A stretch of 64,000 nucleotides of DNA from a virus (Duplodnaviria > Caudoviricetes): IMG/VR virus record IMGVR_UViG_3300032312_001958. One strand, written 5' to 3'. The position numbers and the translations under genes were made by a program. Positions 317-32,180 of this stretch are shown piece after piece (position 1 is the first letter of the stretch; each line of letters opens with the position of its first letter). The notes below the pieces were generated by a model. The model saw only the letters and a program-made list of their open reading frames with translations, searched no databases and had not been told where the DNA came from.

Positions 317-1063
317 TTAATCTTCTTCAGTTTTGATTATATTATCATAAAGTATTTTATATTTTTTCATACTTGTTCTAATTTCTTTAGTTGAAAGATT
401 TGTCATTTCCCTTAGAGATAATAAAATTAAATTTTTATTAAATTTATTATTATCAGAAGTTTGAAAAATTTGTTTGTAGTTTTCTAAAATATCACATAAC
501 GCAACTCCTAATTTATATTCATTGGTACTTTCATGGAACTCATTTGATTTTTCCTTAACTATTTCTAATAGTTTAATTAAAATATTTTCTTTATTATCCT
601 CGTCTTCGTCTATGTAGTAGGCCATACTCGGGTTATTTTCTAAATCACCTGATATATCTTCGTATGAAATTTTTCTGTTCTGTTCTTTTTGGTCTTTTAA
701 AATTTGACCCATTAAATAATTTTTACAGATAGTACCAAAATACGAGTATGCTTTCTTTTCTTTTGACGGACTAAACTTTTCAATTTTAGTCATTAAAAAA
801 GAATGTGTGTCAGTATGAATTTCATAAAAATCCATATCTTTTCGATATAATTTATACCTTCGTATAATTGAAGATATCATTTTATCTAAAGGGTGTCTTA
901 AATAATCATTATAAATCTTGTTCTTTTCGTCAAAAGTAGAGGCGGTTAAAAACATTCTAACCGCCATCTCTTCTCGTTGGTCAAAGTAATTCTCATTTTC
1001 AGATTTACCTTTTTTACCCTTTTGAATGATTATTGTTGTTTGTCCTGAATAATCATTGGTCAT
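317..1063 (-). CDS. Phage RNA polymerase sigma-factor-like protein (region 2; gp55-like late sigma candidate)
   Basis: LMTKIEKFSPSKEKKAYSYFGTICKNYL resembles sigma region 2.3-2.4 and the gp55 FDPxKxxNxFAYFT segment; 248 aa. Confidence 0.6.
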   Translation of the reverse strand: MTNDYSGQTTIIIQKGKKGKSENENYFDQREEMAVRMFLTASTFDEKNKIYNDYLRHPLDKMISSIIRRYKLYRKDMDFYEIHTDTHSFLMTKIEKFSPSKEKKAYSYFGTICKNYLMGQILKDQKEQNRKISYEDISGDLENNPSMAYYIDEDEDNKENILIKLLEIVKEKSNEFHESTNEYKLGVALCDILENYKQIFQTSDNNKFNKNLILLSLREMTNLSTKEIRTSMKKYKILYDNIIKTEED

Positions 1064-1869
1064 TAAACTTCTTGTGGTTCGTATTTTATGTTTCGGTCTT
1101 CAATAAAAAAGTATTCTTTTTTCGCGGAATTAATCCAAAACTTAACCTCATCCTCCGATAATACGTTATCACCATTTTTGTAATTCCAAAAAATTCCTCC
1201 TTTTCGTAAATTCATATGTTTGTAACCTAATTTAGGTATTGTCATAATTTTTACTGAATTATATGTTAAACGTAAAAATAATTCGTACACAAAAGTTAAT
1301 TTCATTGATGGTTTAAATCCTCCAAAATCAATAAAAGTATCTTTTTTGATTACCATTCCTGATGTTTGAAAATTTTGGTAATTTTGTAAAGTTTCATTTG
1401 TTAAAAATCCCATTTCTTGACTGAAATTTGCTGCGAATGTTGCTTCATTAGTAAACCCCGCAAAAACCCCTTTATCATCAACATCAACAACAATAGGTAA
1501 AAAACAATTTACATCATCATAAACTTTTGAATATTTCTCAACATTTTTGAACCAAATTTTAGAATATTCATCGTCAAATTCAGCAATTGTTACCCATTTT
1601 GTTTTTGACTCTGCAACCCCTAAATTTACTTGTTCACAAAAATTAGGTTCTAAGTTCCATTCAATTTTTCTAACATTTAATGAACCAAAATCAAAAGATT
1701 TTAAATGTTCTACTAAAAGTGTTTCAGGGGTGTGTATAATTATTAATTCTTCGGGTTGAACTTCCTGATTCTGAATAGACTGTATTGATTTTTCAAAAAA
1801 TTCAGTGAAAAAGGGAGAAACCGCTGATTTGATTGGTAAAATTACCGTTAAGTCAATTTTGTTTTCCAT
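1063..1869 (-). CDS. Glycosyltransferase family 2 (GT-A)
   Basis: LTVILPI N-terminal strand, EFDD (DxD-like), FGGFKPS, YELFLRL. Confidence 0.8.
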   Translation of the reverse strand: MENKIDLTVILPIKSAVSPFFTEFFEKSIQSIQNQEVQPEELIIIHTPETLLVEHLKSFDFGSLNVRKIEWNLEPNFCEQVNLGVAESKTKWVTIAEFDDEYSKIWFKNVEKYSKVYDDVNCFLPIVVDVDDKGVFAGFTNEATFAANFSQEMGFLTNETLQNYQNFQTSGMVIKKDTFIDFGGFKPSMKLTFVYELFLRLTYNSVKIMTIPKLGYKHMNLRKGGIFWNYKNGDNVLSEDEVKFWINSAKKEYFFIEDRNIKYEPQEV

Positions 1870-1870
1870 A

Positions 1871-2929
1871 TTATGCTTCTACTTTAAATTTATTAATTTG
1901 TTGTGAAAAATACTCTTCTCTAGCTCCCAAATACCTATCAAAAAGGTCAATTACAGTAGTACTGAATTTTTTATGGTCTTGGTAAGATTTAGAAGTTTCT
2001 AACCCATTAGAATATAATTTTTCAGAAATATTATCCTCAATCCAATTTTGGATGTAATCTGCAGTGTAATCAATTAGTTTATCTGATTCAGTAACCCATA
2101 TTCCATTATCTTGATTTAACCAACTTGGAGTAATACTAGGTAAAAGCCCAATTACTGGACAATTTGAAGCCATAGATTCTAAAGGATATGTCCCAAAAGA
2201 ACTTTGATTGTCTATCCAAACCGAAAGACAAGACTCTTTTAATGTGTTTGAAAATTCTTCTTCAGATAATGCTCTCATATCTCTAAAAGTTACCCATCTG
2301 AATTGTGGGAATTTTAAATAGAATTTTTTAATAAAATTCACACCATCTCTTTGTTCTCTCGAATGTACCGCGACAATAGGTTTTGCGGGGAATTTAGATA
2401 CTGAGAATTTTTCAGAAATAACAGGCTCAATAATATCGTATGATACATTTTTCATTATTGGAGAGATGTAATCTTTTAACCACTCACTAGTGATAATACA
2501 TTTAGGAAATCCTAAAGATGACCAAGATTGTCCTGGTGATAATGTTTCAGTAATCCAATCCGCTGATTGACATAAAACAATTTTAGCACAAGGTAATTTT
2601 GTTATTTGAGGCATTATGTACCCAAAAATTTCAGGAATAATAACAAAATCTTCAGGAGAAATCTCCAATTGTTGTCCTTCTACTGATGTATGGGGTAATT
2701 CCATAAATTCGGAACCTAACCATTCTGAAACACCAATGTAATCTTTTTGTTCATGTAAAATAATAGGATTATAACCATTATTTTTTAACGTCATAGCGAT
2801 TCTATAAGTGTGGGCAACCGACGCTTTAGCGTTCCCTTTGGTGTCTTGAACAAAAAAATAAATTCTAACTGATTTATTTTTTAGGTTCTCAACAGACTTT
2901 TGTAATTTTTCTAAATTTGTTTGTTCCAT
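1871..2929 (-). CDS. GT-B (GT4-like) glycosyltransferase
   Basis: VIIPEIF; C-terminal SSFGTYPLESMASNCPVIG is a variant of E-x-F-G-x-x-x-x-E-A-M. Confidence 0.75.
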   Translation of the reverse strand: MEQTNLEKLQKSVENLKNKSVRIYFFVQDTKGNAKASVAHTYRIAMTLKNNGYNPIILHEQKDYIGVSEWLGSEFMELPHTSVEGQQLEISPEDFVIIPEIFGYIMPQITKLPCAKIVLCQSADWITETLSPGQSWSSLGFPKCIITSEWLKDYISPIMKNVSYDIIEPVISEKFSVSKFPAKPIVAVHSREQRDGVNFIKKFYLKFPQFRWVTFRDMRALSEEEFSNTLKESCLSVWIDNQSSFGTYPLESMASNCPVIGLLPSITPSWLNQDNGIWVTESDKLIDYTADYIQNWIEDNISEKLYSNGLETSKSYQDHKKFSTTVIDLFDRYLGAREEYFSQQINKFKVEA

Positions 2930-2942
2930 ATTTTATTTATTA

Positions 2943-3861: not shown

Positions 3862-4588
3862 ATCTTTTTAAAATTTTAGAAATTATAGGGTTTCGAACAA
3901 TGTCTTCGTCCCCAAAAACATGAATTGCAATATCGTCAACGTCTTTAAATTTATCCAACGCGTCAAATAACCCCGAATGTTTTTTATCTTTATATCTATC
4001 AGTCTGTTCAATATCACCTGATATAAAAAATTTACTACTAAACCCAATACGAGTTAATAATAATTTCATTTGACTTGGGGATGAGTTTTGAGCCTCTTCA
4101 AATATAAGAATTGAGTTGTCAATGTTCATCCCTCTCATGTAAGCCAAAGCAAACACTTCAATTACTTCTATTTGTTTTAATTTTTCTCTTTGTTCTTTAC
4201 CAATTATTTTATTTAATAAATAAAAAGATGGGAAAATATAAGGGTCTAATTTTTCTTCTAAATTTCCTGGTAAAGAACCTAATTTTTCCTCAGCTTCAAC
4301 CGCCGGTCTTACTATGATTATTTTTTCATATGGACTTCTTGGGTCTTGTAACAAATCAACCGCACATTTCATTGCAATAAAACTTTTACCAACACCTGCC
4401 GGACCTGAACAAATTGTAATTTGATTGTTAACTAATTTATCGTAATATTCTTCTTGTCCTTTTGATAAGAATTTATTTTTAGTCTTACCTTTAATAATTT
4501 GGCTAATTTGTTCCTTTTTACTAATCTTTGGTTTTACCTCTGTTTGAAAAGTTTGAGGTTCTTTAAGGGTTGTTTTTCTTCTAGTCAT
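3851..4588 (-). CDS. phoH: PhoH-like ATPase
   Basis: GPAGVGKS Walker A, RPAVEAEEKLGSLPG, AYMRG, EEAQN, GDIEQTD, RNPII. Confidence 0.95.
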   Translation of the reverse strand: MTRRKTTLKEPQTFQTEVKPKISKKEQISQIIKGKTKNKFLSKGQEEYYDKLVNNQITICSGPAGVGKSFIAMKCAVDLLQDPRSPYEKIIIVRPAVEAEEKLGSLPGNLEEKLDPYIFPSFYLLNKIIGKEQREKLKQIEVIEVFALAYMRGMNIDNSILIFEEAQNSSPSQMKLLLTRIGFSSKFFISGDIEQTDRYKDKKHSGLFDALDKFKDVDDIAIHVFGDEDIVRNPIISKILKRYEN

Positions 4589-5562
4589 ATTTTAATTGTA
4601 TAATATTCCATCCAGTAGTCAATCATTTCATCTAACATACTTTCAAAAGTGTATTCATGTGACCAACTTGTTTTTTCTATCAATTTTGATGAGTCCCCTT
4701 TTAAGTCATGTAATTCTTCAGGTCTTAAAAATTTCTCATCCTGAGTTACATACTCTCTATAGTCTAAACCTAAAGATGAGAATACGTAATCACAAAGTTC
4801 TCTTACTGAGTGTGATACCCCTGTCGAGCAAACAAAATCATCTGAATTATCTAATTGTAATATTTGCCACATTGCTTTAACGTAATCTTTAGCATGACCC
4901 CAATCACGAGTCGCGTCAAGGTTACCTAATTTTAATTCATTAGAAAAACCTAATTTTATTTTAACCGCTTCTTTACAAACTTTATTAGTTACAAAATTAG
5001 TTCCTCGTCTTGGTGATTCGTGATTAAATAAGATTCCATTAGATATGAACATACCATAAGAATTTCTATAATTACGACAAATGTTATAACTAAATACTTT
5101 TGCACATCCGTAAGGTGATACTGGATTCATTGGGGTAGTTTCTCTTTGATAACCATCAGAATCAATTGAATTACCAAACATTTCGGATGATGATGCTTGA
5201 TAAATTTTAGTATTAGGTTTAATTAATTTCACGGATTCAAGTAGATTTAAAGTACCTAAACCAGTAACATTAGATGTGTAGATTGGTTGGTCAAAAGAAA
5301 TTCTAACGTGAGATTGTGCCGCTAAATTATATATTTCATCAGGCATTACTTTTTGTATTACAGATATTAAAGATGAAATATCAGTTAAATCCGCATAATG
5401 TAATTTAACCTTATCATAAACATTCTCTAATCTTGAGGTTTGATTTTCCGCAACAGAGTTTCTTTTTAATGTACCATGGACTTCGTATCCCTTCTCAAGT
5501 AATAGTTCGGATAGGTAAGACCCATCTTGTCCATTTATACCTGTTATTAGTGCTTTTTTCAT
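4585..5562 (-). CDS. gmd: GDP-mannose 4,6-dehydratase
   Basis: ALITGINGQDGSYLSELLL, YNLAAQSHV, YQASSSEMFG, SPYGCAK, FNHESPRRG, GNLDATRDWGHAKDY. Confidence 0.97.
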   Translation of the reverse strand: MKKALITGINGQDGSYLSELLLEKGYEVHGTLKRNSVAENQTSRLENVYDKVKLHYADLTDISSLISVIQKVMPDEIYNLAAQSHVRISFDQPIYTSNVTGLGTLNLLESVKLIKPNTKIYQASSSEMFGNSIDSDGYQRETTPMNPVSPYGCAKVFSYNICRNYRNSYGMFISNGILFNHESPRRGTNFVTNKVCKEAVKIKLGFSNELKLGNLDATRDWGHAKDYVKAMWQILQLDNSDDFVCSTGVSHSVRELCDYVFSSLGLDYREYVTQDEKFLRPEELHDLKGDSSKLIEKTSWSHEYTFESMLDEMIDYWMEYYTIKI

Positions 5563-5574
5563 ATTTAAATTATT

Positions 5575-5649: not shown

Positions 5650-6258
5650 TTATTTATTTTTTTCGAAAACAGAAAATCCATTTCTTTCGTCTAGTTTATC
5701 ATAAAGGGTAGTGAAATTATTACTATCTAATATTTCTTGTCTTATTTTATTTGTTTTTAAAATATTACTATCATCTAAAACAACAATTCGAGTTCTATCT
5801 TTTAACTTTACCCATTCAGGGTAAGTTGTATATTCCCCACCATCTAAAATTAATAAATCAATTTTTTCAGGTAATTTATCCAATATATTCTCAGCAGTTT
5901 TTAAATAATTCAAATCTTTTTCGTAGTATAGTTGAGCGTGGGCATCTGATTGAAAATCAATCGTTGAGTGGTCAAACCAATACACGTCGTCTAAATCTAT
6001 AATTCTACCATTTAATAAATTAACATAAGATGAATATGGTTCTAAAAATTTTTTAGCAATTTCGTACATTTCTGGATACAATTCTAAGGAATAGAATTCT
6101 TTAGTTTCACTTTTATCAATTAAAGACTGTATAACGCACATTGTTGAACCTTCTCCATTCCATGTACCTATTTCTACAATTGTTTTAACGTCTTCCCTAC
6201 TTGATAGATTATATATTAAGTCTCCCCAAGGTGTGCCTATATTAATTTGACCTGCCAT
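5650..6258 (-). CDS. Class I SAM-dependent methyltransferase (Methyltransf_24-like)
   Basis: IVEIGTWNGEGST motif I, LLILDGGE, VVLDD. Confidence 0.8.
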   Translation of the reverse strand: MAGQINIGTPWGDLIYNLSSREDVKTIVEIGTWNGEGSTMCVIQSLIDKSETKEFYSLELYPEMYEIAKKFLEPYSSYVNLLNGRIIDLDDVYWFDHSTIDFQSDAHAQLYYEKDLNYLKTAENILDKLPEKIDLLILDGGEYTTYPEWVKLKDRTRIVVLDDSNILKTNKIRQEILDSNNFTTLYDKLDERNGFSVFEKNK

Positions 6259-6276
6259 TTTTTAGTATATATTTTT

Positions 6277-6969: not shown

Positions 6970-6983
6970 AAGTCATCAATTAA

Positions 6984-7604
6984 TTATTTTTTTTTAAAAA
7001 AACCTTCACCAAAGTTACCTCCCCACCAAAATTGGTCAATACAGGTAAATCCATTGTCATTTAAGAACCTTTGGATATCCTCAAACAAAGGACACCCTTG
7101 ATATAGTTCATCGGAGTTTATCTCAACAACCAAATAATCAATATTTTTTAATGTTTTAATTGAGCCTTTAAGTACCTCTAATTCGTAACCCTGAACATCG
7201 ATATTCATCATATTATATAGAGAATAATCAAAATCCAAATCATCCAATCTATCCATCTCAACAACTTCTTTTTTATCAAAAACTATACTCGGAAATTGTC
7301 TTGTGTGTAGTTTCGGTTCCAAAATAGATGACGACATCCCATTATTATTCGATTCAACGAACATCTCAATTTGTTTTTTTTCATTACCTAAAGCCTTTTT
7401 AACTAAAATGGTTCCGTCTTCATTACCAACTTTTTCAACTAAAGTTCTAAAATTAGAGTTTAGTGGTTCAAAAAAAATTTTATTCTTCGCACCTAATTCA
7501 TTATATAATTCATTTTCTTGCCCAAAATGGGCACCAACGTGAATTACACCTTTTATTTGCACATCGTGTTTCATAATGAAACCTTTAAATTCTAAGTTAT
7601 TCAT
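6984..7604 (-). CDS. FkbM family methyltransferase
   Basis: VIHVGAHFGQE, FEPL, NIDVQGYELEVLKG, LVVEIN. Confidence 0.9.
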   Translation of the reverse strand: MNNLEFKGFIMKHDVQIKGVIHVGAHFGQENELYNELGAKNKIFFEPLNSNFRTLVEKVGNEDGTILVKKALGNEKKQIEMFVESNNNGMSSSILEPKLHTRQFPSIVFDKKEVVEMDRLDDLDFDYSLYNMMNIDVQGYELEVLKGSIKTLKNIDYLVVEINSDELYQGCPLFEDIQRFLNDNGFTCIDQFWWGGNFGEGFFKKK

Positions 7605-7639
7605 ACCATCTTTTTTTTGTTATTTTATTTTTTTTGATA

Positions 7640-16755: not shown

Positions 16756-16758
16756 AAA

Positions 16759-17976: not shown

Positions 17977-17983
17977 AGAAACA

Positions 17984-18012
17984 ATTATAGTTATTAAACT
18001 ATAACATTTCAA
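17984..18012 (-). promoter_or_regulatory. Sigma70-like early/middle promoter of the long leftward operon
   Basis: TTGAAA-17 nt-TATAAT on minus strand, with 7 nt between the -10 box and the ATG at 17976. Confidence 0.65.
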
Positions 18013-18021
18013 CCCATAAGA

Positions 18022-18054
18022 AATAAAAAACCCTACCGAAGTAGGGTTATTTTT
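18022..18054 (-). terminator. Rho-independent terminator with C(UUCG)G tetraloop
   Basis: Minus strand AACCCTAC-TTCG-GTAGGGTT followed by TTTTATTT; T-run on the other side too. Confidence 0.9.
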
Positions 18055-20652: not shown

Positions 20653-20697
20653 AATGTTTTTACCTATAAATACTTTGATTATTGTATTTATTAAAAG

Positions 20698-23658: not shown

Positions 23659-23693
23659 TTTAATTGTAGTATTTTTTGGATAAAAATATTAAT

Positions 23694-24938: not shown

Positions 24939-24941
24939 AAA

Positions 24942-25013: not shown

Positions 25014-25024
25014 TACTTAAAATT

Positions 25025-25663
25025 ATGAAAAAAATAATTAGTTTTTCTTTATACGGTAATGACCCAAAGTATACTTTTGGGGCTTTATGTAATGCTGAAT
25101 TAAGAAAAGAAATTTATCCTGATTGGATTTGTAGATTTTATTGTGGAACAAGTGTTCCTCAAGAAATAATAGAAAATCTTTTAAATTATAGTAATACTGA
25201 AGTAATTATGATGGACGAGACTCAAAAATATTCATTTAGAATGTGGAGATATTTACCAATGATTGATAAAGAAGTATCTATATTTTTATCTAGAGACGCC
25301 GATTCAAGACTATCATTCAGAGAAAAAAAATGTGTCGATATTTTTATAGAATCGGATAGTTTAATACATTCAATACAGGATAATTTTAATCACCCTGATT
25401 TTATGGCAGGTATGTGGGCAATGAAAAAAAGTATTGATATTGACCTAATTAGACTATTTGAGGAGTGGGGAGAAGAAAAAACCTACGACTCTGACCAACT
25501 TTTTTTAAGAGAGAAAATTGTACCTTTATTTGGTGATAAAAAATTAATTCATTGCTCAACATTTGATAAAACATTCCCAAATGTTGATGAAACTAATCAT
25601 TTTGTAGGTGAGGTTTTTCCTTGGGATAATCATGGTAGACCTAAAAATTATATTTTTTATTGA
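25025..25663 (+). CDS. Putative GT-A glycosyltransferase-like protein
   Basis: IISFSLYG..PKY..GA..NA, WRYLP, SRDADSR, AGMW, DQLFL. Confidence 0.6.
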   Translation: MKKIISFSLYGNDPKYTFGALCNAELRKEIYPDWICRFYCGTSVPQEIIENLLNYSNTEVIMMDETQKYSFRMWRYLPMIDKEVSIFLSRDADSRLSFREKKCVDIFIESDSLIHSIQDNFNHPDFMAGMWAMKKSIDIDLIRLFEEWGEEKTYDSDQLFLREKIVPLFGDKKLIHCSTFDKTFPNVDETNHFVGEVFPWDNHGRPKNYIFY

Positions 25664-26556
25664 TGAAGTTATTAATACAGCACAATTTTATAACAGGGTT
25701 AGGTGATATGTACGTATCGGTTACCCAATATTTAGAATTTGCAAATGAATATAAAAATAAAGGATATGAAACTGAGCTTGTAGTTTGTTTTAGAGAAAAC
25801 AAATATATTGATATGATTGATTTTTCAGAAATATTTGATATGGAATATTTTAGTGTTTTTGATAAAATTTCATATGTGAAAAAACCAATTTTAAAAAAGA
25901 AATATGAAGAGTTAACTTATGTGTTTACCGCCAATTTAACAGTCGACCCAAAACCAGGACAGCAAGATTGGGACGTATTTTTATCAGAATCAAACGAAAA
26001 ATTAATAATACCAAATTCAACAACTTACAGATTATTAGTCGATAATAATCAACCAAAAATTAAACCAAAATTTTCTAAAGACATTATTAACAAATCAGAT
26101 ATAATCTCCCGACAAATAGGTGATGATTACAATTATTTACAAATTAGAATGAATGATGAAAAAAGACTAACAAAAGATGACTATAAAATGTTAGAGTTAT
26201 TTCATAATAAAATTATTCAAACTAATGAGGTTTTTCATATAGGTTCAAATAGTCACGAAGTTTTAAATTTCTTTAACAATAAAAAAAATGTTTTTACATA
26301 TGGATTTAAATCTAGTTGTGAATTTGATAGTAATCACAATTATTTTGGTCACACTAATTTAACAAATGAGGAGTATATACAAAGATTAAAAGACAACATT
26401 GTTGAAATGGTTAGTATAAAAAACGCTAAAAAAATTTATCAATACTCTGAAATTTTTTGGATTTCACAATTTTTGTTTTACTCATTTGTTGAGAACATAG
26501 GAAATATAAATTTTTATAGAGTTAATAATCAATTTGAAACAATAAGTTATATTTAA
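25660..26556 (+). CDS. Putative fucosyltransferase-like (GT11/GT23/O-FucT-type) protein
   Basis: HNFITGLGD N-terminal motif, LQIRMND, SQF; weak similarity. Confidence 0.45.
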   Translation: MMKLLIQHNFITGLGDMYVSVTQYLEFANEYKNKGYETELVVCFRENKYIDMIDFSEIFDMEYFSVFDKISYVKKPILKKKYEELTYVFTANLTVDPKPGQQDWDVFLSESNEKLIIPNSTTYRLLVDNNQPKIKPKFSKDIINKSDIISRQIGDDYNYLQIRMNDEKRLTKDDYKMLELFHNKIIQTNEVFHIGSNSHEVLNFFNNKKNVFTYGFKSSCEFDSNHNYFGHTNLTNEEYIQRLKDNIVEMVSIKNAKKIYQYSEIFWISQFLFYSFVENIGNINFYRVNNQFETISYI

Positions 26557-26596
26557 AAATCATCATTATTTAATATATTAATAAAAAACTATAAAC

Positions 26597-26968
26597 ATGG
26601 AATACCCAATAAGTGAAATTTTAGATAGATATTCTATCGCTATTTTAAAAAAAGAAAGATTAGATATTGATAATCAAAAAGAAATTAATGATTTAAAAGT
26701 TGTTATAGAATCTTATAAAGATGAGAATTTTGAATTTATTGAATCCTATATAACTAAATTAATAGATATAAATGGAAAAATATGGGATTTAGAATCGGAT
26801 ATTAGAAAAGGTAAAGAAGGAGTGTTAGGATTAGAAGAAGTTGGTAGAAGAGCAATTCTTATTCGAGAAAATAATAAAATAAGAGTTGGATATAAAAACG
26901 AAATTGTTGAATATTTTGGAGTTGGTTATTTAGACATAAAAATGAATCACGTTAGTTCCAATGGATAA
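26597..26968 (+). CDS. DUF6165-like helical protein
   Basis: PISEILDRYSIAILK, INGKIWDLESDIR, NKIR..YKNEI; paralog at 46084. Confidence 0.6.
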   Translation: MEYPISEILDRYSIAILKKERLDIDNQKEINDLKVVIESYKDENFEFIESYITKLIDINGKIWDLESDIRKGKEGVLGLEEVGRRAILIRENNKIRVGYKNEIVEYFGVGYLDIKMNHVSSNG

Positions 26969-28550
26969 GATAGTTATAACCCTTACAACCGTACCCCAAA
27001 GACTTTCTTACAATGTCGATGATGGATTTAAATTGGTTTTAAAATCACTTTGTGAACAAAACCATGAAAATTATGAGGTTCATTTAAATTTACCGTATTT
27101 TTATAATGTTACAGATGAAGAGTATATTATACCTGATTGGTTAAATGAATATAGTCAAAAATACAGTCATTTTAAAATTTTTAGAACTCCCGATTATGGA
27201 CCCCCAACTAAAGTTGTCCCAACAATAAAGAGAGAAAGTAAAAATACTTTAATGATTATTGTTGATGATGATTTAATTTATCATCCAGACATGATTAACG
27301 AACATTTAAAATATCATGACTTGCTTGACGACTCAGTAATTTTATATGACGGTAGAAGTTTAGTTTATCCTAAATTTGGTGATTTAAGAGATGCTTGGGT
27401 TTTAACTGTAAATGAAATATTAAGAGTTAAAGAATTACAACATTATAAATCCGCGTCATATTTTGTCAAATATTTTGAGGATGATTTTTTCAGAGATTTT
27501 GTTGGTCATACTAAATCAGATGATGTTTTAATGTCTTATTATTTTAGATATAAAGATATACCAATGTATGTTGTTCCTTATGAAGAAGAAGCAAAATTAA
27601 TATTTGATTACGATAGTTGGCATAAAACTCAACGGGTTGAAACTTTTCCAGTAATTAGACCCTCAAATAGTTTAATGGACACTGGATGTAATCACCCTGA
27701 TATATTAAAAAATGAACCAAAATTTTTTATACCTGATAGTTTTAAACATGTGGACCAAAAACCATTTATCAGTAAACATGAAAATATTATAGGTACAAAT
27801 AATAAAAAAACTATTGAAGTACCGATTCAAAATAGAACACTAAATAACAAATTAGAAATCCATAGAGTTAGAGATTTAATTTTAAAAATTAGCGAAGATT
27901 TTAATAAGATTGATAAGAAATTTTGGGACACAATTCATTTAACAGGTGAAGAACACGATTTCCAAAGAAGTAAGCCCGCTCCTTACATAAAAAAAACTTG
28001 TGAGATTGGAAAAATTTTAGGATTAAAAACTGTGGTTGAAATTGGTGCAACTAGACATGGAATAACTCCTAATTGTGTTAATTATTTTTACAATTCTAAT
28101 AATCCATTTGTATCACCTACATGTTGTGCGGATGGTCACGGAGGAATATTTTTCTCATTAGAAGGATTTGAAACTTACTCAGTTGATATTGATGAAAATT
28201 GTGAGACACATATTAGATGGTCATACGAATCTATTGGTAGGGAAATCCCAAGTAACCTAAATTTATTCATACCTAAAGACGGGATAGAATTTTTAAATGA
28301 ATTTGAAGGTAATATTGATATTTTATTTCTTGATGGTTGGGATGTTGGTACTCATGAATATGCTGAAAATCATTTAAAGGCATTTGAAGTCTCTAAAGAA
28401 AAGTTATCCGATATTCATTTAATTTTAATTGATGATACTGATTTTACAATGAGTGAGGGTAAAGATGTTTTATTGTCACCACATTTAATATCATTAGGTT
28501 ACACTTTATTATTCGATGGTAGACAAAAACTTTATATAAATAAAATTTGA
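26961..28550 (+). CDS. Glycosyltransferase (GT-A) + SAM methyltransferase fusion
   Basis: N-terminal ITLTTVPQR, DYGPPTK, VDDDLIY, SDDV; C-terminal VVEIGATR, FLDGWD, LIDDTD. Confidence 0.7.
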   Translation: MDKIVITLTTVPQRLSYNVDDGFKLVLKSLCEQNHENYEVHLNLPYFYNVTDEEYIIPDWLNEYSQKYSHFKIFRTPDYGPPTKVVPTIKRESKNTLMIIVDDDLIYHPDMINEHLKYHDLLDDSVILYDGRSLVYPKFGDLRDAWVLTVNEILRVKELQHYKSASYFVKYFEDDFFRDFVGHTKSDDVLMSYYFRYKDIPMYVVPYEEEAKLIFDYDSWHKTQRVETFPVIRPSNSLMDTGCNHPDILKNEPKFFIPDSFKHVDQKPFISKHENIIGTNNKKTIEVPIQNRTLNNKLEIHRVRDLILKISEDFNKIDKKFWDTIHLTGEEHDFQRSKPAPYIKKTCEIGKILGLKTVVEIGATRHGITPNCVNYFYNSNNPFVSPTCCADGHGGIFFSLEGFETYSVDIDENCETHIRWSYESIGREIPSNLNLFIPKDGIEFLNEFEGNIDILFLDGWDVGTHEYAENHLKAFEVSKEKLSDIHLILIDDTDFTMSEGKDVLLSPHLISLGYTLLFDGRQKLYINKI

Positions 28551-28551
28551 T

Positions 28552-30231
28552 ATGGATAGTAATATTACTTTAGTAACAGGACTTTGGGATTTAAAAAGAG
28601 AAGAACTAAGTGAAGGATGGGCTAGGTCTTTCGAGAACCATTATCTTGAAAAATTTAAACAACTTTTAACAGTAAAAAATAATTTAATTATTTTTGGAGA
28701 TTCAGAACTTGAAAAGTTTGTGTGGGAATTTAGGTCACATGAAAATACCCAATTTATTAATCGAGATTTAATTTGGTTTAAAAATGAATTTTACGATAAG
28801 ATACAGTTAATAAGAAATAACCCAAATTGGTATAATCAATCAGGTTGGTTATCTGAATCCACTCAAGCAAAATTGGACATGTATAACCCATTGGTGATGT
28901 CTAAAATTTTTTTACTTAATGACGCAAGAATTTTAGATAAATTTGAATCTGAAAAATTATTTTGGATAGATGCAGGTATAAGTAATACTGTTCACATTGG
29001 GTACTTCACACATGATAATGTTTTAGAAAAATTAGATAAAAAAATTACAAAATTTTCTTTTGTTTGTTTTCCATATAATGCGGAAAATGAAATTCATGGA
29101 TTTTCATACCCAATGATAAACAATTGGGCGGAAGACGATGTTAAATTAGTGGGTAGAGGAGGTTTTTTTGGAGGACCAAAAAAAACAATTGGTGAAATAA
29201 ATTCAATATATTATGGATTATTATCTGACACTCTAAACCAAGGGTATATGGGGACTGAAGAATCTATTTTTTCAATCATGGTTTATAAATACCCTAATTT
29301 AATAGATTATTTTGAAATTGAAGGTAATGGATTATTAAGTACGTTTTTTGAAAACGCTAAAAATGAAACTTTAGAAGTTAAAAATCAAAAAAAGACAAAT
29401 CAAAAAAATAGTTTTGATATTGATAAAACTTCATTATATGTAATTGGATTTAACAGTCCTAATCAATTAGAAACTTTAATTAAATCAATGATTTCTTATG
29501 ATGAGGATTTTATAAATAAACCAAAAAAATACTTGTTAAATAATTCAACAGATAGAAGTACAGATGAAAAATATGTTGAAATTTGTAATCTACACAATTT
29601 TGAAATTATTTGGTCTAAAGAAAATCTTGGTATATGTGGAGGTAGACAATTTATTGCCGAACATTTTGATAAAAGTGAAAATGATTATATGTTTTTCTTT
29701 GAGGATGATATGTTTTTCTACCCTAAAGAGGGTGAAGTTTGTAGAAATGGATTTAACAGATATGTTAAAAATTTATATCAAAAATCTTTAAACATAATTA
29801 AAAATTATAATTTTGATTTTTTAAAATTGAATTATAGTGAGTTTTTTGGGGATAACGGAACACAGTGGAGTTGGTATAACGTACCTCAATCTTTTAGAGA
29901 ACAACATTGGTCTGAAAAATCAAAATTACCTGAATTTGGTACTGACCCTAATTCTCCTAAAACTAAGTTCACTTCAATAACTTCATATGATGGTGTACCT
30001 GTTGCAACAGGTGAAATATTTTATTGTAATTGGCCTCAAGTAGTGTCAAAAAACGGAAACGTAAAAATGTTTTTAGAAACAACTTGGGCTCATCCTTATG
30101 AACAAACATGGATGAGTCATATGTTTCAAGAAACAATTAAAGGTAATTTAAATCCTGGTTTGTTATTACTGACACCAACAGAACACAATCGTTTTGAACA
30201 TTACGACGGAAAACTAAGGAAAGAAAGTTAA
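28552..30231 (+). CDS. HtrL/YibB-like glycosyltransferase fused to a second GT-A domain
   Basis: ITLVTGLWDL..W.RSF..YL..F, FWIDAG, GGFFGG, TEE; C-terminal NLGICGGRQ, FFEDDM. Confidence 0.7.
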   Translation: MDSNITLVTGLWDLKREELSEGWARSFENHYLEKFKQLLTVKNNLIIFGDSELEKFVWEFRSHENTQFINRDLIWFKNEFYDKIQLIRNNPNWYNQSGWLSESTQAKLDMYNPLVMSKIFLLNDARILDKFESEKLFWIDAGISNTVHIGYFTHDNVLEKLDKKITKFSFVCFPYNAENEIHGFSYPMINNWAEDDVKLVGRGGFFGGPKKTIGEINSIYYGLLSDTLNQGYMGTEESIFSIMVYKYPNLIDYFEIEGNGLLSTFFENAKNETLEVKNQKKTNQKNSFDIDKTSLYVIGFNSPNQLETLIKSMISYDEDFINKPKKYLLNNSTDRSTDEKYVEICNLHNFEIIWSKENLGICGGRQFIAEHFDKSENDYMFFFEDDMFFYPKEGEVCRNGFNRYVKNLYQKSLNIIKNYNFDFLKLNYSEFFGDNGTQWSWYNVPQSFREQHWSEKSKLPEFGTDPNSPKTKFTSITSYDGVPVATGEIFYCNWPQVVSKNGNVKMFLETTWAHPYEQTWMSHMFQETIKGNLNPGLLLLTPTEHNRFEHYDGKLRKES

Positions 30232-30258
30232 TCTGTATATTTATTGTAAAAACAATAA

Positions 30259-30627
30259 ATGGAATTTTATATTGGTCAAAATAGTAATTTACCTATTTTA
30301 AAGATGCAAGTCATTAAAGACGGTAAACATGATATTGATTCAATGTTAGAACTTTTAGAAGAATCTGTTTTATATTTCTCAATGAAGGATATTAAAAATG
30401 GAAACTATAAAATATTAAATTCTTCAGCTGGTTTTGTCGAAAAAATTTTTTTAGAACCAAATTCTGATGTTGAGTATTATCTTTATTATAAATTTTCAAA
30501 AAGTGACACCTCTAAATCAGGAAGATTTGAAGGTGAGTTTTTATTAAAGTCTGAGAATGGAACACTTTTATTGCCAATAAGAGATAAATTATTCATAAAC
30601 GTTACCGAATCAACAATTATCACTTAA
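30259..30627 (+). CDS. BppU-N-like virion attachment domain protein
   Basis: FYIGQNSNLPIL...YKFSKSDTSKSGRFEGEF...LP; paralog of the N-terminus of the next gene. Confidence 0.55.
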   Translation: MEFYIGQNSNLPILKMQVIKDGKHDIDSMLELLEESVLYFSMKDIKNGNYKILNSSAGFVEKIFLEPNSDVEYYLYYKFSKSDTSKSGRFEGEFLLKSENGTLLLPIRDKLFINVTESTIIT

Positions 30628-32180
30628 TGGAATTTTTCATAAAAAAAAATGCAACTTTACCATTATTAAAGTTTGAAGTATTTCAAGATGGTAGAAGTGA
30701 TTTTAATAATTTACAAAATCTGAGTGGGACATCATCAAGTTATTTGACTTTAATTGACCCAACAAATTCTGAAATAAAATTTGCTAGTAGACCGTGTTCG
30801 ATTGTAACCGGACAATCAGAGTACGACGAATCAAAAATAATTTATTTTGTTCAGTATCAATTTAAAAATACTGAAACAAAAAAATTAGGTAGATATGAAA
30901 TAGAACTTTCAATGATTGATACAAATGGTACAGTTATTTTACCATTAAGGGATAAAGTTTTTGTTAATATAATTGATAGTTTTTCAATAGACGGATTTTC
31001 ATTCCCAAACAATTATGAAGTTGATTATCCGTGTTGTGAAGGGGCTCAACCTAACCCGACTCCGGCAAATTCACCAACACCATCTATTTCTTCTACACTC
31101 ACACCAACAAAAACAAAAACACCGACACCAACACCGACACCTAATCAGTCATCTTCGGTAACACCTACACCAACCACTACCCCAACTGTAACACCTACAA
31201 TTTCAGTAAGTCCAACAATAACTAAAACACCTACAAATACACCGACTCAAACTACAACAACTACGACAACAATAACTCCGACTAATACCGTCACACCAAC
31301 AATAACTCCAACTAATAGTCAGACACCTGCAGTTAGTCCATCGGTAACACCAACAAAAAGTATTACACCAACAAAAACAAAAACACCAACTGTTACACCA
31401 ACAAACTCATTAACACCAACTATTACACCAACTACTACAATAACACCAACTGTGAGTCCTTCATATATTCCTCCGTCAATTATTGTAAATTCGGTTGATA
31501 ATGATGGAGTTGTATATTCTTACAATTTTGGAACAGGTGTTGTTACTAATGTAACTCCTCCTCAAAATTCATCTATTACTAGTAAAAGTTGGATTGGAAA
31601 ATACAATAACATTTGGTGGACATTTGACGGATATTCAACTTTATACAGACAAGATGGATTGTCTAATGCTCCTGTAAATAAACCAACTGGTGCACTTACA
31701 GACCCAGGTATATGTGTATTAGATTCTAATAATGTATTATTTGTAAGAACACCTATGTCAGGTCCTAATAGAAATATAATTTTAGGTCCATATGTAAGTT
31801 TATCATTTAGTTATATATTTTGTGGAAGTCTACCTGTGAATAGATTTGCCACAGGAGGTATGATAAAAACAACGACAAATAAGTTAATAATAATAACAAC
31901 TAATTTTTCAAATACATCAGTTTATTTGAATCAATACCCATACGTAAATAACACTACTTCAGTGTTAACAAGTGAAGTTGAAGTTAATTTAACAAATATT
32001 ATATCAAACCCTAGAGGAATATTTGTTGCAAGTAATCAATTTTATATTGTAAATGCGTCAGGAGAAATCTACCAGATTCAAAAAACATCACCGTACACTG
32101 TCAGTTATGTTACGTCTATCGGAAGAACGGTTAAAGGAATTGCTCAAGACTCAACAAATTGGAATGTAAATTTTAGTTAA
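30627..32180 (+). CDS. Putative virion fibre/appendage: BppU-like N-terminus, Pro/Thr mucin-like stalk, beta-propeller-like C-terminus
   Basis: N-terminus paralogous to 30259; about 140 aa of TPTxTPT repeats; beta-rich C-terminal domain. Confidence 0.65.
   Translation: MEFFIKKNATLPLLKFEVFQDGRSDFNNLQNLSGTSSSYLTLIDPTNSEIKFASRPCSIVTGQSEYDESKIIYFVQYQFKNTETKKLGRYEIELSMIDTNGTVILPLRDKVFVNIIDSFSIDGFSFPNNYEVDYPCCEGAQPNPTPANSPTPSISSTLTPTKTKTPTPTPTPNQSSSVTPTPTTTPTVTPTISVSPTITKTPTNTPTQTTTTTTTITPTNTVTPTITPTNSQTPAVSPSVTPTKSITPTKTKTPTVTPTNSLTPTITPTTTITPTVSPSYIPPSIIVNSVDNDGVVYSYNFGTGVVTNVTPPQNSSITSKSWIGKYNNIWWTFDGYSTLYRQDGLSNAPVNKPTGALTDPGICVLDSNNVLFVRTPMSGPNRNIILGPYVSLSFSYIFCGSLPVNRFATGGMIKTTTNKLIIITTNFSNTSVYLNQYPYVNNTTSVLTSEVEVNLTNIISNPRGIFVASNQFYIVNASGEIYQIQKTSPYTVSYVTSIGRTVKGIAQDSTNWNVNFS
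31048..31478 (+). repeat. Pro/Thr/Ser low-complexity coding repeat (TPTxTPT)
   Basis: Repeated acaccaaca/actccaact units; ACACCAACAAAAACAAAAACACC occurs twice. Confidence 0.9.

What the first reader, a model, noticed from the sequence alone, without database searches (positions are those of the whole stretch)
1063..32180. Probable phage-encoded virion (protein) glycosylation system
Seen: about 15 glycosyltransferase-like genes, Gmd, GT11 and four methyltransferase domains in two clusters. The second cluster (23.7-30.2 kb) lies directly between two putative virion surface proteins. It starts with a GT60-like enzyme and is followed by a protein with a ~140 aa Pro/Thr mucin-like stalk. Established: characterised GT60 enzymes (Dictyostelium Skp1 GlcNAc-T, trypanosome mucin GlcNAc-T) put the first sugar on protein hydroxyl groups; Gmd begins GDP-fucose/GDP-rhamnose synthesis; FkbM-type enzymes O-methylate. 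Inference: this is an initiating + elongating + capping pathway that coats the phage particle with a fucosylated, methylated glycan. No flippase, Wzy, undecaprenyl transferase or obviously membrane-spanning protein is visible, which argues against host O-antigen conversion.
Basis: partly seen in the sequence, partly recalled or inferred. Interest (0 to 1): 0.85.

Follow-up and report, generated by a model that had tools for sequence, protein, structure and literature searches.

The report
Phage sugar-coating genes beside Thr/Pro stalk
An uncultured, AT-rich T4-like giant phage carries about a dozen soluble sugar-transferase genes, one related to the enzymes that start mucin-type sugar chains, next to a tail-fibre-like protein with a 146-residue Thr/Pro stalk, so it probably sugar-coats its own particle, though no sugar has been measured.

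Summary
The window is a low-GC T4-like jumbo phage. It holds Gmd, GT11, a strong GT60/PF11397 enzyme, two methyltransferases (not four) and 11-12 recognisable glycosyltransferase genes (not 15). None has a membrane segment. The 517-aa protein after the second cluster has a tail-anchor-like Ig domain, a 146-aa Thr/Pro/Ser stalk and a beta-propeller head.

Comparative evidence links GT60 to Thr/Pro-rich proteins.
- Most of 102 related loci keep the order GT60, 0-10 variable genes, HtrL/GT2 enzyme, anchor-domain protein(s).
- 63 of 110 anchor-domain proteins carry a Thr/Pro tail.
- In one 99%-complete relative the GT60 gene lies elsewhere, and 38 of the genome's 41 Thr-Pro repeat hits lie around it.
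- A second GT60 subfamily shows the same pairing (p 7e-10, not phylogenetically independent).
- Cultured phage XacN1 has the same GT60 plus HtrL/GT2 pair and Schiff-positive virion proteins.

The best reading is cytoplasmic mucin-type O-glycosylation of the phage's own fibre stalks (about 0.55). Whether the first cluster (1-18 kb) feeds the same glycan is less sure. In bacteria the pairing is much weaker (8 of 75 loci). No glycan has been measured. This scan has already noted the same pairing in at least 92 other genomes. I found no published description for phages.

The parts
1063..1869 (-). GT2-like glycosyltransferase (weak)
   Evidence: PF00535 E 0.002, 18.5 bits, below the cut-off. No hydrophobic segment.
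1871..2929 (-). Possible GT-B (GT4-like) glycosyltransferase (weak)
   Evidence: The C-terminal 110 residues match NCBIfam VpsD and SdgA glycosyltransferases at E 1e-3 to 4e-3, far below the cut-offs.
4585..5562 (-). GDP-mannose 4,6-dehydratase (Gmd)
   Evidence: PF16363 E 7e-116, full length. Homologues at 64-65% identity lie in the same island of relatives L165 and L166.
5650..6258 (-). SAM methyltransferase (Methyltransf_24)
   Evidence: PF13578 E 1.2e-5, just above the cut-off.
6984..7604 (-). FkbM-type methyltransferase
   Evidence: PF05050 E 3.5e-17. A homologue lies inside the GT60 cassette of relative L009.
7640..8413 (-). GT2 glycosyltransferase
   Evidence: PF00535 E 1.7e-11.
10012..11244 (-). 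FAD-dependent oxidoreductase of the PRK07208 / amine-oxidase type; possibly a sugar mutase or oxidase
   Evidence: PF01593 E 1.6e-14, NAD_binding_8 E 1.2e-11. NCBIfam PRK07208-type E 1e-28, below the cut-off. The function is inferred only.
11246..12019 (-). GT11 alpha-1,2-fucosyltransferase family enzyme
   Evidence: PF01531 E 1.7e-33. Homologues lie inside the GT60 cassette of L009 and L027.
12006..12719 (-). GT2 glycosyltransferase
   Evidence: PF00535 E 4.6e-18.
12722..13468 (-). GT2-like glycosyltransferase (Glyco_tranf_2_4)
   Evidence: PF13704 E 7.5e-11.
13461..15461 (-). 666-aa multidomain enzyme with an N-terminal GT2_5 domain
   Evidence: PF13712 E 2.2e-29 over residues 38-212. It is split into two genes in L164. 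Only 43% identical in the close relative L002, whose neighbouring genes are 87-95% identical.
16759..18012 (-). Clade-conserved GT-B-like glycosyltransferase between the exonuclease and the gene at 18053; acceptor unknown
   Evidence: phrog_7162 'glycosyltransferase' E 1.3e-42. 50-88% identical in relatives. Homologues lie in a four-transferase cluster beside the primase/helicase of Phapecoctavirus phages.
20698..23658 (+). 986-aa clade-core protein: conserved first ~550 residues, variable C-terminal part, LamG-like signature; putative virion or host-interaction protein
   Evidence: More than 1000 homologues, all unnamed, with only the first ~56% conserved. Laminin_G_3 in 7 of 29 family members. 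Atlas lead to LamG plus GH18/GH85 at 0.86. Relatives carry Thr/Pro runs. TATAAATA and TATTTAT lie upstream.
23676..24938 (+). GT60-like (PF11397) soluble glycosyltransferase; proposed initiating polypeptide O-glycosyltransferase (likely start ATG at 23694, 414 aa)
   Evidence: PF11397 E 4.4e-65. More than 7400 homologue clusters, typically 414 aa. D92-S93-H94 and WHEYTR are invariant in 17-22 divergent homologues. 45-48% identical to XacN1 ORF334 and its relatives.
25025..25663 (+). 212-aa cassette protein of unknown family
   Evidence: No Pfam, PHROG or NCBIfam match. Weak homologues occur in the cassettes of L004, L029 and L032.
25660..26556 (+). 298-aa protein, fucosyltransferase-like (NodZ/FUT8/O-FucT superfamily) by a lead only
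   Evidence: Atlas feature scores 0.94-0.97, with 180-208 shared features, to clusters in which a share of members carries NodZ, FUT8_N_cat or O-FucT. No Pfam hit.
26961..28550 (+). 529-aa protein with a weak N-terminal GT2 domain
   Evidence: PF00535 E 3.8e-4, below the cut-off. NCBIfam EpsD E 5e-4.
28552..30231 (+). Bifunctional HtrL_YibB + GT2 enzyme, the conserved partner of GT60
   Evidence: PF09612 E 6e-16, plus weak GT2 over residues 297-403. Found downstream of GT60 in 85 of 102 phage loci. 42% identical in XacN1 ORF330. Adjacent to GT60 in 43 of 80 bacterial loci.
30259..30627 (+). 122-aa stand-alone Ig-like anchor domain, paralogue of the N-domain of the next gene
   Evidence: 35% identical to residues 1-118 of the 30627 product, E 1e-23. 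Model pLDDT 85. The best fold matches include phage baseplate, neck and BppU N-domains, Z 7.2-8.5. TATTTAT lies 21 nt upstream.
30627..32180 (+). 517-aa fibre-like protein: anchor Ig domain (1-135), Thr/Pro/Ser stalk (~140-285), six-bladed beta-propeller (~286-517); proposed glycan acceptor
   Evidence: Translation. Model: the N-domain is confident (block pLDDT mostly 72-96), residues 135-279 are disordered, the C-domain is all-beta. Foldseek matches to Pizza, YWTD and Kelch propellers at E 7e-8 to 1e-5. Stalk composition.

Best explanation
The cassette at 23.7-30.2 kb is a cytoplasmic, mucin-type protein O-glycosylation system for the phage's own appendages.

Proposed steps:
1. Late in infection the soluble GT60-family enzyme (23694-24938) puts a first sugar on Thr/Ser hydroxyls of the 146-residue Thr/Pro/Ser stalk of the fibre-like protein 30627-32180. 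By analogy with protist GT60 enzymes that sugar is probably GlcNAc from UDP-GlcNAc.
2. The conserved two-domain HtrL/GT2 enzyme (28552-30231) extends it.
3. The variable genes between them diversify the chain. Here these are a fucosyltransferase-like protein, a GT2-like protein and two unknowns.
4. Cluster 1 probably supplies GDP-6-deoxyhexose through Gmd. It probably also supplies more extending enzymes (GT11 and several GT2) and O-methyl caps (FkbM, Methyltransf_24).

The fibre sits on the tail, baseplate or neck through its BppU-like Ig domain. It presents a beta-propeller head on a stiff, protease-resistant, glycosylated stalk.

Shown here: the gene families, the absence of membrane parts, the domain architecture and the conserved gene linkage.
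Inferred: the donor sugar, the acceptor, the timing, the part played by cluster 1 and the virion location.
For: 1. Family. PF11397 scores 220.9 bits, and the DSH and WHEYTR motifs are invariant. Characterised GT60 enzymes are polypeptide alpha-GlcNAc-transferases that start mucin-type O-glycans on Ser/Thr-rich domains in Dictyostelium and T. cruzi (PMC8724618).

2. Linkage in the clade. Of 102 distinct GT60 loci, 85 have the HtrL/GT2 gene downstream, with 0-10 genes between. A Thr/Pro/Ser-rich ORF lies within 6 kb on either side in 37 of 45 loci with both flanks. The anchor-domain family directly follows the cassette, and 63 of its 110 distinct members carry a Thr/Pro/Ser run, most of them starting right after the domain.

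3. Co-translocation. In G006 (99% complete) the usual site has no GT60 and only a bare 117-aa anchor protein. A 38%-identical GT60 lies at 63 kb, between two Thr/Pro-rich ORFs. 38 of the 41 TPTPTP-coding hits in the 292-kb genome lie at 57.8-64.3 kb.

4. Second subfamily. 32 of 48 loci have a Thr/Pro-rich ORF within two genes. 40 of 137 near ORFs are Thr/Pro-rich against 13 of 237 far ORFs, p 7e-10.

5. All the enzymes are soluble, and no lipid-carrier or export gene is present.

6. The acceptor looks like a virion fibre. Fold matches to the N-domain include 80alpha, TP901-1 BppU, NF5, Douge and T5 baseplate or tip proteins and the Sf14 neck. It also has a propeller head and no signal peptide.

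7. TATTTAT lies upstream of the sheath, tube, adaptor-like and giant-protein genes, and also of 20698 and 30259. That is 9 of 54 genes against 2.65 expected.

8. XacN1 has GT60 plus HtrL/GT2 beside baseplate genes. Its virions show at least two Schiff-positive proteins (PMC5852040, Suppl. Fig. S4).

9. Fucose and methyl genes sit inside the cassette in relatives: GT10, GT11, FkbM and a SAM methyltransferase. The window's own cassette has a fucosyltransferase-like gene.
Against: - No glycan has been measured on any phage of this clade.
- No cultured phage has a homologue of the stalk protein, its anchor domain or the 986-aa protein.
- The fold matches of the anchor domain are middling (Z 7-8.5), and generic Ig domains score about 7.
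- Thr/Pro-coding runs are spread over at least 8 regions of a complete relative, so some proximity is expected by chance.
- 8 of 45 loci with both flanks have no Thr/Pro-rich neighbour.
- The statistics count related loci, not independent events.
- In bacteria only 8 of 75 GT60 loci have a Pro+Thr-rich ORF within two genes, so the enzyme pair need not act on such tracts.
- Cluster 1 keeps its place in G006 although GT60 is about 60 kb away. It lies among early-type genes without the TATTTAT motif.
- The window has no GDP-fucose synthase.
Confidence: 0.55

Rival explanations
1. Host surface glycan remodelling. Some or all of the transferases, above all the hypervariable cluster 1 with Gmd, GT11 and the methyltransferases, change the infected cell's capsule, LPS or S-layer glycan. 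This would block superinfection or stop progeny from sticking to debris. The Thr/Pro stalks would then be plain flexible linkers.
For: - Jumbo-phage sugar-gene clusters have been read this way (PMC7824862).
- Cluster 1 lies on the strand and among the genes of nucleotide metabolism: PhoH, NT5C-like, dUTPase, exonuclease. It lacks the TATTTAT motif.
- It stays in place in a relative whose GT60 is elsewhere.
- HtrL is named after a gene of the E. coli LPS-core region (Pfam description).
- GT60 plus HtrL/GT2 pairs are common in bacteria without Thr/Pro-rich neighbours.
Against: - The transferase and methyltransferase genes have no membrane segment, and 1-32 kb has no flippase, polymerase, polyprenyl-phosphate transferase or Gtr-type gene.
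- A lytic T4-like phage has little time for surface conversion.
- This reading does not explain why GT60 and Thr/Pro-rich ORFs move together.
Confidence: 0.2
2. DNA hypermodification. Part of the transferase set glycosylates modified bases in phage DNA to evade restriction, as T4 alpha- and beta-glucosyltransferases and other phage enzymes do. The best candidate is the clade-conserved GT-B-like gene 16759-18012, which lies beside the exonuclease and dUTPase genes.
For: - Phage transferases that hypermodify DNA with diverse glycans are known (Pyle et al. 2024, cited in PMC12619734).
- 16759-18012 is conserved while its neighbours in the island vary. It sits among DNA-metabolism genes.
- Its homologues in Phapecoctavirus lie beside the primase/helicase.
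Against: - The window has no hydroxymethylase or T4-type AGT/BGT family.
- A ThyA-family gene occurs in only one of two near-complete relatives, and it looks like an ordinary thymidylate synthase (E 1e-96).
- Gmd, fucosyltransferases, FkbM and a dozen transferases are far more than any known DNA glycan needs.
- GT60 enzymes are known only on proteins.
Confidence: 0.07
3. The glycosylated Thr/Pro proteins are not parts of the particle. The cassette would modify phage-encoded soluble or lysis-released proteins, or host proteins. Possible roles are decoys, adhesins that bind debris, or matrix-binding factors.
For: - No virion proteome exists for this clade.
- Many family members are just the anchor domain plus a short Thr/Pro tail, 170-280 aa, with no distal domain.
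- The Ig-fold matches are not decisive.
Against: - The Ig domain's best matches are concentrated on phage baseplate, tip and neck anchor domains.
- In the second subfamily the neighbours are strings of large adhesin- or fibre-like proteins with SprB and YadA-type repeats.
- In XacN1 the cassette abuts the baseplate wedge genes and a 3313-aa ORF, and glycoproteins are found in purified virions.
Confidence: 0.1

Closest known systems
CAZy GT60 polypeptide alpha-GlcNAc-transferases of protists (Dictyostelium and Trypanosoma cruzi mucin-type initiating enzymes; Skp1 hydroxyproline GlcNAc-transferase Gnt1)
   Same: Same Pfam family, PF11397, at 220.9 bits. The DSH motif is conserved. The proposed acceptor is a Thr/Pro-rich mucin-like tract, as for the protist mucin-type enzymes.
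   Different: Here the enzyme is encoded by a bacteriophage and is soluble, with no membrane anchor. It is paired with an HtrL/GT2 enzyme that is not part of the protist pathways. Donor and acceptor are untested, and identity to the protist enzymes was not measured here.
Xanthomonas jumbo phage XacN1 (and Xoo-sp13, Stenotrophomonas phages CM1 and RAS14)
   Same: ORF334 is 48% identical to the window's GT60 and ORF330 is 42% identical to its HtrL/GT2 enzyme. Both sit in one five-gene cassette beside baseplate genes. Schiff staining shows glycoproteins in virions, and the authors proposed that the phage's transferases make them.
   Different: The hosts are Gammaproteobacteria with high GC. The middle genes include a carbamoyltransferase. 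No homologue of the anchor-domain or stalk protein was found. The glycoproteins were not identified, and the link to GT60 and Thr/Pro tracts was not drawn.
Mycobacteriophage virion glycosylation (Freeman et al. 2023, Cell Host Microbe; known to me through its citation in PMC12619734)
   Same: Phage-encoded transferases beside structural genes modify the phage's own virion proteins in the cytoplasm.
   Different: There, glycans are reported at the C-termini of capsid and tail-tube subunits, and as far as I know the transferases belong to other families. There is no GT60, no mucin-like stalk, no Gmd, fucosyltransferase or methyltransferase toolkit, and no hypervariable island. I could not read the paper itself.
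Chlorovirus PBCV-1 capsid glycosylation
   Same: A virus-encoded, cytoplasmic, host-independent glycosylation machinery that includes a viral GDP-mannose 4,6-dehydratase and yields fucose- and methyl-sugar-containing glycans. This rests on established knowledge and on the citation in PMC5852040.
   Different: PBCV-1 is a eukaryotic giant virus. Its glycans are N-linked on the major capsid protein. No GT60 initiator or Thr/Pro stalk is involved.

Membership tests
CAZy GT60 / Pfam PF11397 (GlcNAc transferase) | Sequence match to the family model above the curated threshold | tested here: met
   220.9 bits against a cut-off of 21, E 4.4e-65, two stretches covering most of the model. The same family is precomputed on all 120 listed homologues.
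CAZy GT60 / Pfam PF11397 (GlcNAc transferase) | Conserved GT-A type metal/nucleotide-binding acidic motif (DxD or DxH) | tested here: met
   Q90, D92, S93 and H94 are invariant in 17 sequences down to 35% identity and conserved in at least 21 of 22 in a wider set. That this is the catalytic DxH is an inference by analogy with GT27 enzymes.
CAZy GT60 / Pfam PF11397 (GlcNAc transferase) | Transfers GlcNAc from UDP-GlcNAc to a protein Ser/Thr/Hyp hydroxyl | not testable with these tools
   Needs an enzyme assay. The only support is gene linkage with Thr/Pro-rich ORFs.
Phage virion protein glycosylation systems | Transferase genes linked to genes of virion proteins | tested here: met
   The cassette is directly followed by proteins with a BppU-like anchor domain in more than 130 loci. 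In XacN1 it lies beside the baseplate wedge genes.
Phage virion protein glycosylation systems | Glycan demonstrated on virion proteins | not testable with these tools
   The only evidence is the Schiff stain of XacN1 virions in the literature. There is nothing for this clade.
Host O-antigen / capsule conversion modules (Gtr, Wzx/Wzy, polyprenyl-phosphate dependent) | Membrane-embedded flippase, polymerase, GtrA/B-type or initiating polyprenyl-phosphate transferase | tested here: not met
   No 19-residue window with mean hydropathy of 1.6 or more in any transferase or methyltransferase gene. The only ORFs in 1-32 kb that reach 1.6 are the exonuclease (one window) and the overextended 5' end of 19792-20721. 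No such Pfam family in 1-32 kb.
Phage DNA glycosylation (T4 alpha/beta-glucosyltransferase type) | Hydroxymethyl-pyrimidine synthesis gene and a DNA glucosyltransferase family member | tested here: inconclusive
   None in the 64-kb window by Pfam. A ThyA-family gene occurs in one of two near-complete relatives. The rest of this phage's genome is not available.
BppU-type N-terminal baseplate anchor domain | Ig-like beta-sandwich superposable on TP901-1 BppU N-domain and its relatives | tested here: inconclusive
   VIA Z 8.4 (4v96_AA, 97 residues, rmsd 2.8), 7.3 (3uh8_A) and 8.5 (80alpha, 6v8i_BJ). Foldseek's best hit is the DT57C baseplate at E 6e-4. Generic Ig domains score about 7. No sequence match to PDB.
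GDP-mannose 4,6-dehydratase | Full-length match to the family model | tested here: met
   PF16363 E 7e-116, profile positions 1-332 of 332.
GDP-L-fucose pathway | GDP-4-keto-6-deoxymannose epimerase/reductase (Fcl/GMER) alongside Gmd | tested here: not met
   Gmd is the only short-chain dehydrogenase/epimerase in the window. Relative G001 has a second epimerase-family gene near its Gmd, while G006 has only Gmd. The host enzyme, or a different 6-deoxyhexose, may be used.

The most novel reading that the evidence does not exclude
A very abundant clade of freshwater jumbo phages, probably of Bacteroidota, builds a true mucin-type glycocalyx on its tail or neck fibres. A prokaryote-virus member of the GT60 family starts the chains in the cytoplasm on Thr/Pro stalks. 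A conserved HtrL/GT2 partner extends them. Hypervariable gene islands, swapped even between phages with 95% identical flanking genes, diversify them into phage 'glycan serotypes'. The same two-enzyme module in many bacterial phyla would then mark an undescribed prokaryotic cytoplasmic O-glycosylation pathway related to the one that starts mucin-type glycans in protists.
Probability: 0.4. Interest if true: 0.85.

Novelty: new variant of a known kind. Interest (0 to 1): 0.7.

Why it matters
Glycosylated phage particles are known from only a few cases, and none uses a mucin-type initiating enzyme.

If this reading holds:
- A large and abundant group of lake phages (more than 7400 clusters of the GT60 gene at 90% identity) coats its appendages with complex, rapidly diversifying glycans. 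That would affect host recognition, resistance to proteases and grazers, stickiness to organic matter, and how phages are seen by lectins or antibodies.
- GT60 plus HtrL/GT2 would be a prokaryotic protein O-glycosylation module that needs no membrane carrier. Such a module is attractive for glyco-engineering.
- It would bear on where the protist mucin-type pathway came from.

The idea can be tested now, because XacN1, Xoo-sp13, CM1 and RAS14 are cultured and carry the same two enzymes.

Tried and rejected
- PHROGs on 20 unassigned ORFs named only three: a transferase, an unknown family and an adaptor.
- tblastn against 50,697 cultured-phage records found nothing for the stalk protein, the 986-aa protein, the 122-aa anchor protein or the 18053-18634 product. 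No proteomic evidence can therefore be borrowed. The 'sigma factor' label that another first-reader note gave to 18053-18634 is not confirmed.
- Sequence searches of PDB found nothing for GT60, HtrL/GT2 or the anchor-domain profile.
- The profile of the 986-aa family hit only low-complexity stretches (8zvk, sigma-factor N-terminal regions), which I disregard.
- The whole-protein model of the stalk protein gave only propeller matches. I therefore folded the anchor domain separately.
- The 273-aa gene that follows GT60 in the second subfamily is not detectably HtrL-like (E 0.06). I do not claim the pair is conserved there.
- The window's own genome is not held, so absences refer to the 64 kb only.
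- Freeman et al. 2023 could not be read.
- A search for 'GT60' with 'phage' in the paper library gave no relevant paper.
- It is unclear whether this clade is the published 'moraphage' lineage, which has four core transferase groups and predicted Bacteroidota hosts (PMC12619734).
- I ran no complex prediction of enzyme with stalk, because enzyme-substrate pairs are outside what that test resolves.
- I rejected a giant-virus origin, despite PolB, SOD and Gmd, because of the T4-type sheath, tube, baseplate and gp32 genes.

Full report
WHAT THE WINDOW IS

The 64-kb window has about 29% G+C. It encodes a tail sheath with large insertions (41267-44446), a gp19-type tube protein, a T4 baseplate protein, gp32, a family-B DNA polymerase, an SNF2 helicase, PhoH and an Fe/Mn superoxide dismutase.

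The sheath is only about 29% identical to its best cultured match, Microcystis phage Mel-JY01. The window is therefore an uncultured, distant T4-like myovirus. No whole genome is held for it. IMG/VR holds many relatives, on contigs up to 321 kb with terminal repeats, so it belongs to a jumbo-phage clade.

CHECK OF THE OBSERVATION

Pfam confirms these genes:
- Gmd at 4585-5562, E 7e-116.
- GT11 at 11246-12019, E 1.7e-33.
- GT2-type enzymes at 7640, 12006, 12722 and 13461.
- An FkbM methyltransferase at 6984-7604 and a Methyltransf_24 enzyme at 5650-6258.
- A PF11397 (GT60) enzyme at 23676-24938, 220.9 bits.
- A two-domain HtrL_YibB plus GT2 enzyme at 28552-30231.

PHROGs adds 16759-18012 as a glycosyltransferase.

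Three further genes (1063, 1871, 26961) have only sub-threshold transferase signals. One (25660-26556) is fucosyltransferase-like by a language-model lead only.

Five ORFs of the clusters remain without a family. Cluster 1 is interrupted by PhoH, an NT5C-like protein, a dUTPase and a PolB-type exonuclease.

A hydropathy scan found no membrane-type segment in any of these enzymes, and no export or lipid-carrier gene is present. The product of 30627-32180 does carry a mucin-like stalk: 146 residues with 56 Thr, 32 Pro and 17 Ser. It is the only ORF of the window with such a run.

THE FLANKING PROTEINS

I folded the 517-aa protein with a 92-sequence alignment. The model shows:
- a confident N-terminal beta-sandwich;
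- a disordered segment at residues 135-279;
- an all-beta C-terminal domain, which Foldseek matches to six-bladed propellers (Pizza, YWTD, Kelch; E 7e-8 to 1e-5).

The small gene just before it (30259-30627) is a paralogue of the N-domain (35% identity, E 1e-23). Folded alone it has pLDDT 85. Its best structural matches include:
- the 80alpha baseplate (Z 8.5);
- TP901-1 BppU (Z 8.4; its isolated N-domain, Z 7.3);
- the NF5 and Douge baseplates;
- the Sf14 neck;
- T5 and DT57C tip proteins.

These scores are middling, and ordinary Ig domains reach about 7. I read the domain as a probable tail-anchor domain, not a proven one.

The 986-aa protein upstream (20698-23658) has more than 1000 unnamed homologues. 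Only their first ~550 residues are conserved. Seven of 29 members give weak Laminin_G_3 hits, and others carry papain-like or fibrinogen-C modules. The Atlas points to LamG with a GH18/GH85-like insert at a score that is only a lead. Its modular build fits a host-interaction protein. Its place in the virion is not shown.

COMPARATIVE EVIDENCE FOR A GT60 / THR-PRO LINK

First, in the clade itself:
- 85 of 102 distinct GT60 loci have the HtrL/GT2 gene downstream on the same strand, with 0 to 10 genes between.
- The anchor-domain proteins follow.

The anchor-domain family has 110 distinct members in these loci. Sixty-three of them carry a Thr/Pro/Ser-rich run, in most cases starting right after the domain. 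Total lengths run from 170 to over 2000 residues.

The middle genes are replaced wholesale even between close relatives. In L002 the flanking genes are 87-96% identical, but all five middle genes differ and the stalk protein is only 65% identical. Where they can be named, the replacements are sugar enzymes: a GT10 fucosyltransferase, a SAM methyltransferase, and GT11 and FkbM homologues.

Second, a natural rearrangement. In G006, a 292-kb contig rated 99% complete:
- The usual site reads PolB, bare 117-aa anchor protein, 241-aa ORF, 986-aa homologue. It has no GT60.
- A 38%-identical GT60 lies at 63 kb, between a 170-aa and a 541-aa Thr/Pro-rich ORF. Its neighbours are large proteins with SprB and YadA-type repeats.
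- 38 of the genome's 41 hits to a TPTPTP-coding pattern lie at 57.8-64.3 kb.

Third, that second GT60 subfamily has 48 distinct loci. In 32 of them a Thr/Pro-rich ORF lies within two genes. 40 of 137 nearby ORFs are Thr/Pro-rich, against 13 of 237 ORFs four or more genes away (Fisher p 7e-10).

Caveats:
- These loci are related, so the p-values overstate independence.
- Thr/Pro-coding runs occur in at least eight regions of a complete relative, so they are a genome-wide habit of these phages.
- 8 of 45 loci with both flanks available have no such neighbour.

BEYOND THE CLADE

Cultured jumbo phages XacN1, Xoo-sp13, CM1 and RAS14 have GT60 homologues at 45-48% identity. XacN1 and RAS14, the two I examined further, also have HtrL/GT2 homologues at 39-42% identity. 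In XacN1 the five-gene cassette lies convergent with the baseplate wedge genes and a 3313-aa ORF.

The XacN1 paper reports at least two Schiff-positive proteins in purified virions. It suggests that the phage's transferases, ORF328 and ORF334, make them. ORF334 is the GT60 homologue (PMC5852040).

In bacterial genomes the GT60 gene is widespread, with 479 confirmed stretches. The closest matches are in Saprospiraceae and other Bacteroidota bins. An HtrL/GT2 homologue lies next to it in 43 of 80 loci, so the two enzymes form an old module. A Pro+Thr-rich neighbour within two genes occurs in only 8 of 75 bacterial loci. That is enriched over more distant genes (12 of 264 against 2 of 311, p 0.0045) but far from the rule.

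Earlier notes of this scan say the pairing recurs in 'many bacteria' (e1-5808239) and that the enzyme occurs 'almost always' with Thr/Pro-tract proteins (e1-5651917). My count supports only a weak enrichment among immediate neighbours.

EXPRESSION HINTS

TATTTAT occurs within 60 nt upstream of 9 of 54 genes, against 2.65 expected (3 of 2000 shuffles reach this). These are the sheath, tube, adaptor-like, 48068 and 50126 genes, plus 39448, 20698, 30259 and 19792. The last of these shares the divergent intergenic region with 20698. None of the cluster-1 genes has the motif.

This fits late expression of the 20698-to-32180 block together with the structural genes. Cluster 1 would then be expressed earlier. 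It is a motif count, not a measurement.

MECHANISM I THINK MOST LIKELY

The GT60 enzyme starts O-glycans on the stalk of the fibre-like protein in the cytoplasm. The HtrL/GT2 enzyme extends a common core. The variable cassette genes and probably cluster 1 then build a strain-specific, deoxyhexose-containing and methylated outer part.

The link between the two clusters rests on three points:
- the cassette has a fucosyltransferase-like gene (a lead), while Gmd sits in cluster 1;
- GT11, GT10 and FkbM genes lie inside the cassette in relatives;
- no other GDP-sugar source is present.

Three points weaken it:
- cluster 1 stays put in G006;
- it sits in an early-type context;
- the window has no GDP-fucose synthase (relative G001 has a second epimerase-family gene near its Gmd).

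I put the cassette-acts-on-stalk reading at about 0.55, and the single-pathway reading lower.

RIVALS

- Host surface remodelling (0.2) fits cluster 1 best, but it lacks any membrane machinery.
- DNA glycosylation (0.07 as a whole) could still hold for the conserved GT-B-like gene 16759-18012.
- The acceptor proteins might not be virion parts (0.1).

COMPARISON WITH WHAT IS KNOWN, AND NOVELTY

Characterised GT60 enzymes are protist polypeptide alpha-GlcNAc-transferases that start mucin-type glycans (PMC8724618). The window's enzyme is a clear family member by sequence. Its activity is untested.

Virion glycosylation by phage enzymes is known in mycobacteriophages and was proposed for XacN1. 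Chloroviruses have a viral Gmd and cytoplasmic capsid glycosylation. What differs here:
- the mucin-type initiator next to Thr/Pro stalks;
- the conserved HtrL/GT2 partner;
- the size and turnover of the glycan gene islands;
- the abundance of the clade.

I found no paper that describes this for phages.

This scan has noted the same pairing in at least 92 other genomes. That is not independent evidence, and it means the present window is one more instance rather than a first sighting.

I rate it a new variant of a known kind, with interest 0.7.

Noticed in passing
L232-L311 (bacterial genome contigs); window 23676-24938 and 28552-30231: GT60 and the two-domain HtrL/GT2 enzyme form a conserved adjacent pair in 43 of 80 bacterial loci. 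The loci come from Bacteroidota, Gemmatimonadota, Acidobacteriota, Verrucomicrobiota and Proteobacteria. This looks like an uncharacterised two-enzyme module much older than the phage clade.
   Followed up: partly
L169 (G006 50000-69900), ORFs 14791-17097 and 6707-8293: Large proteins next to the translocated GT60 carry SprB repeats, a Bacteroidota gliding-adhesin repeat. The closest bacterial GT60 homologues (66-68% identity) are in Saprospiraceae bins. Both point to Bacteroidota hosts. Some of those bin contigs may be mis-binned phage DNA.
   Followed up: partly
window 13461-15461 and 25025-28550 compared with L002: In a relative whose flanking genes are 87-96% identical, the GT2_5 enzyme is only 43% identical and all the cassette's middle genes are replaced by unrelated ones. 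The glycan islands turn over like O-antigen loci.
   Followed up: partly
window 16054-18634: The order exonuclease, GT-B-like transferase, small unassigned gene (18053-18634) recalls from memory T4's gene 47, alpha-gt, gene 55 order. However, 18053-18634 has no detectable similarity to any sigma factor or to any cultured-phage protein. A G+C-rich hairpin followed by a T run lies between 18053 and 18012.
   Followed up: partly
L312 (Escherichia phage ESCO13, 102052-110921): Homologues of 16759-18012 sit in a row of four annotated glycosyltransferases beside the primase/helicase of Phapecoctavirus phages. I do not know their acceptor.
   Followed up: no
window 20698-23658 family (A3): The variable C-terminal parts of this core protein family include a papain-like peptidase in one member and a fibrinogen-C lectin-type domain in another. 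The window's copy has a ~275-residue insert that the Atlas associates with GH18/GH85 TIM barrels.
   Followed up: partly
window 36912-37697: An Fe/Mn superoxide dismutase with an N-terminal extension of about 60 residues lies between the adaptor-like gene and the SNF2 helicase. Relatives L068 and L072 have 407-450-aa versions.
   Followed up: no
window 19792-20721: The listed TTG start overlaps the divergent gene at 20698 and gives a hydrophobic N-terminus. Relatives align only from residue ~24-29, so the true start is probably further in and the hydrophobic stretch is not translated.
   Followed up: partly
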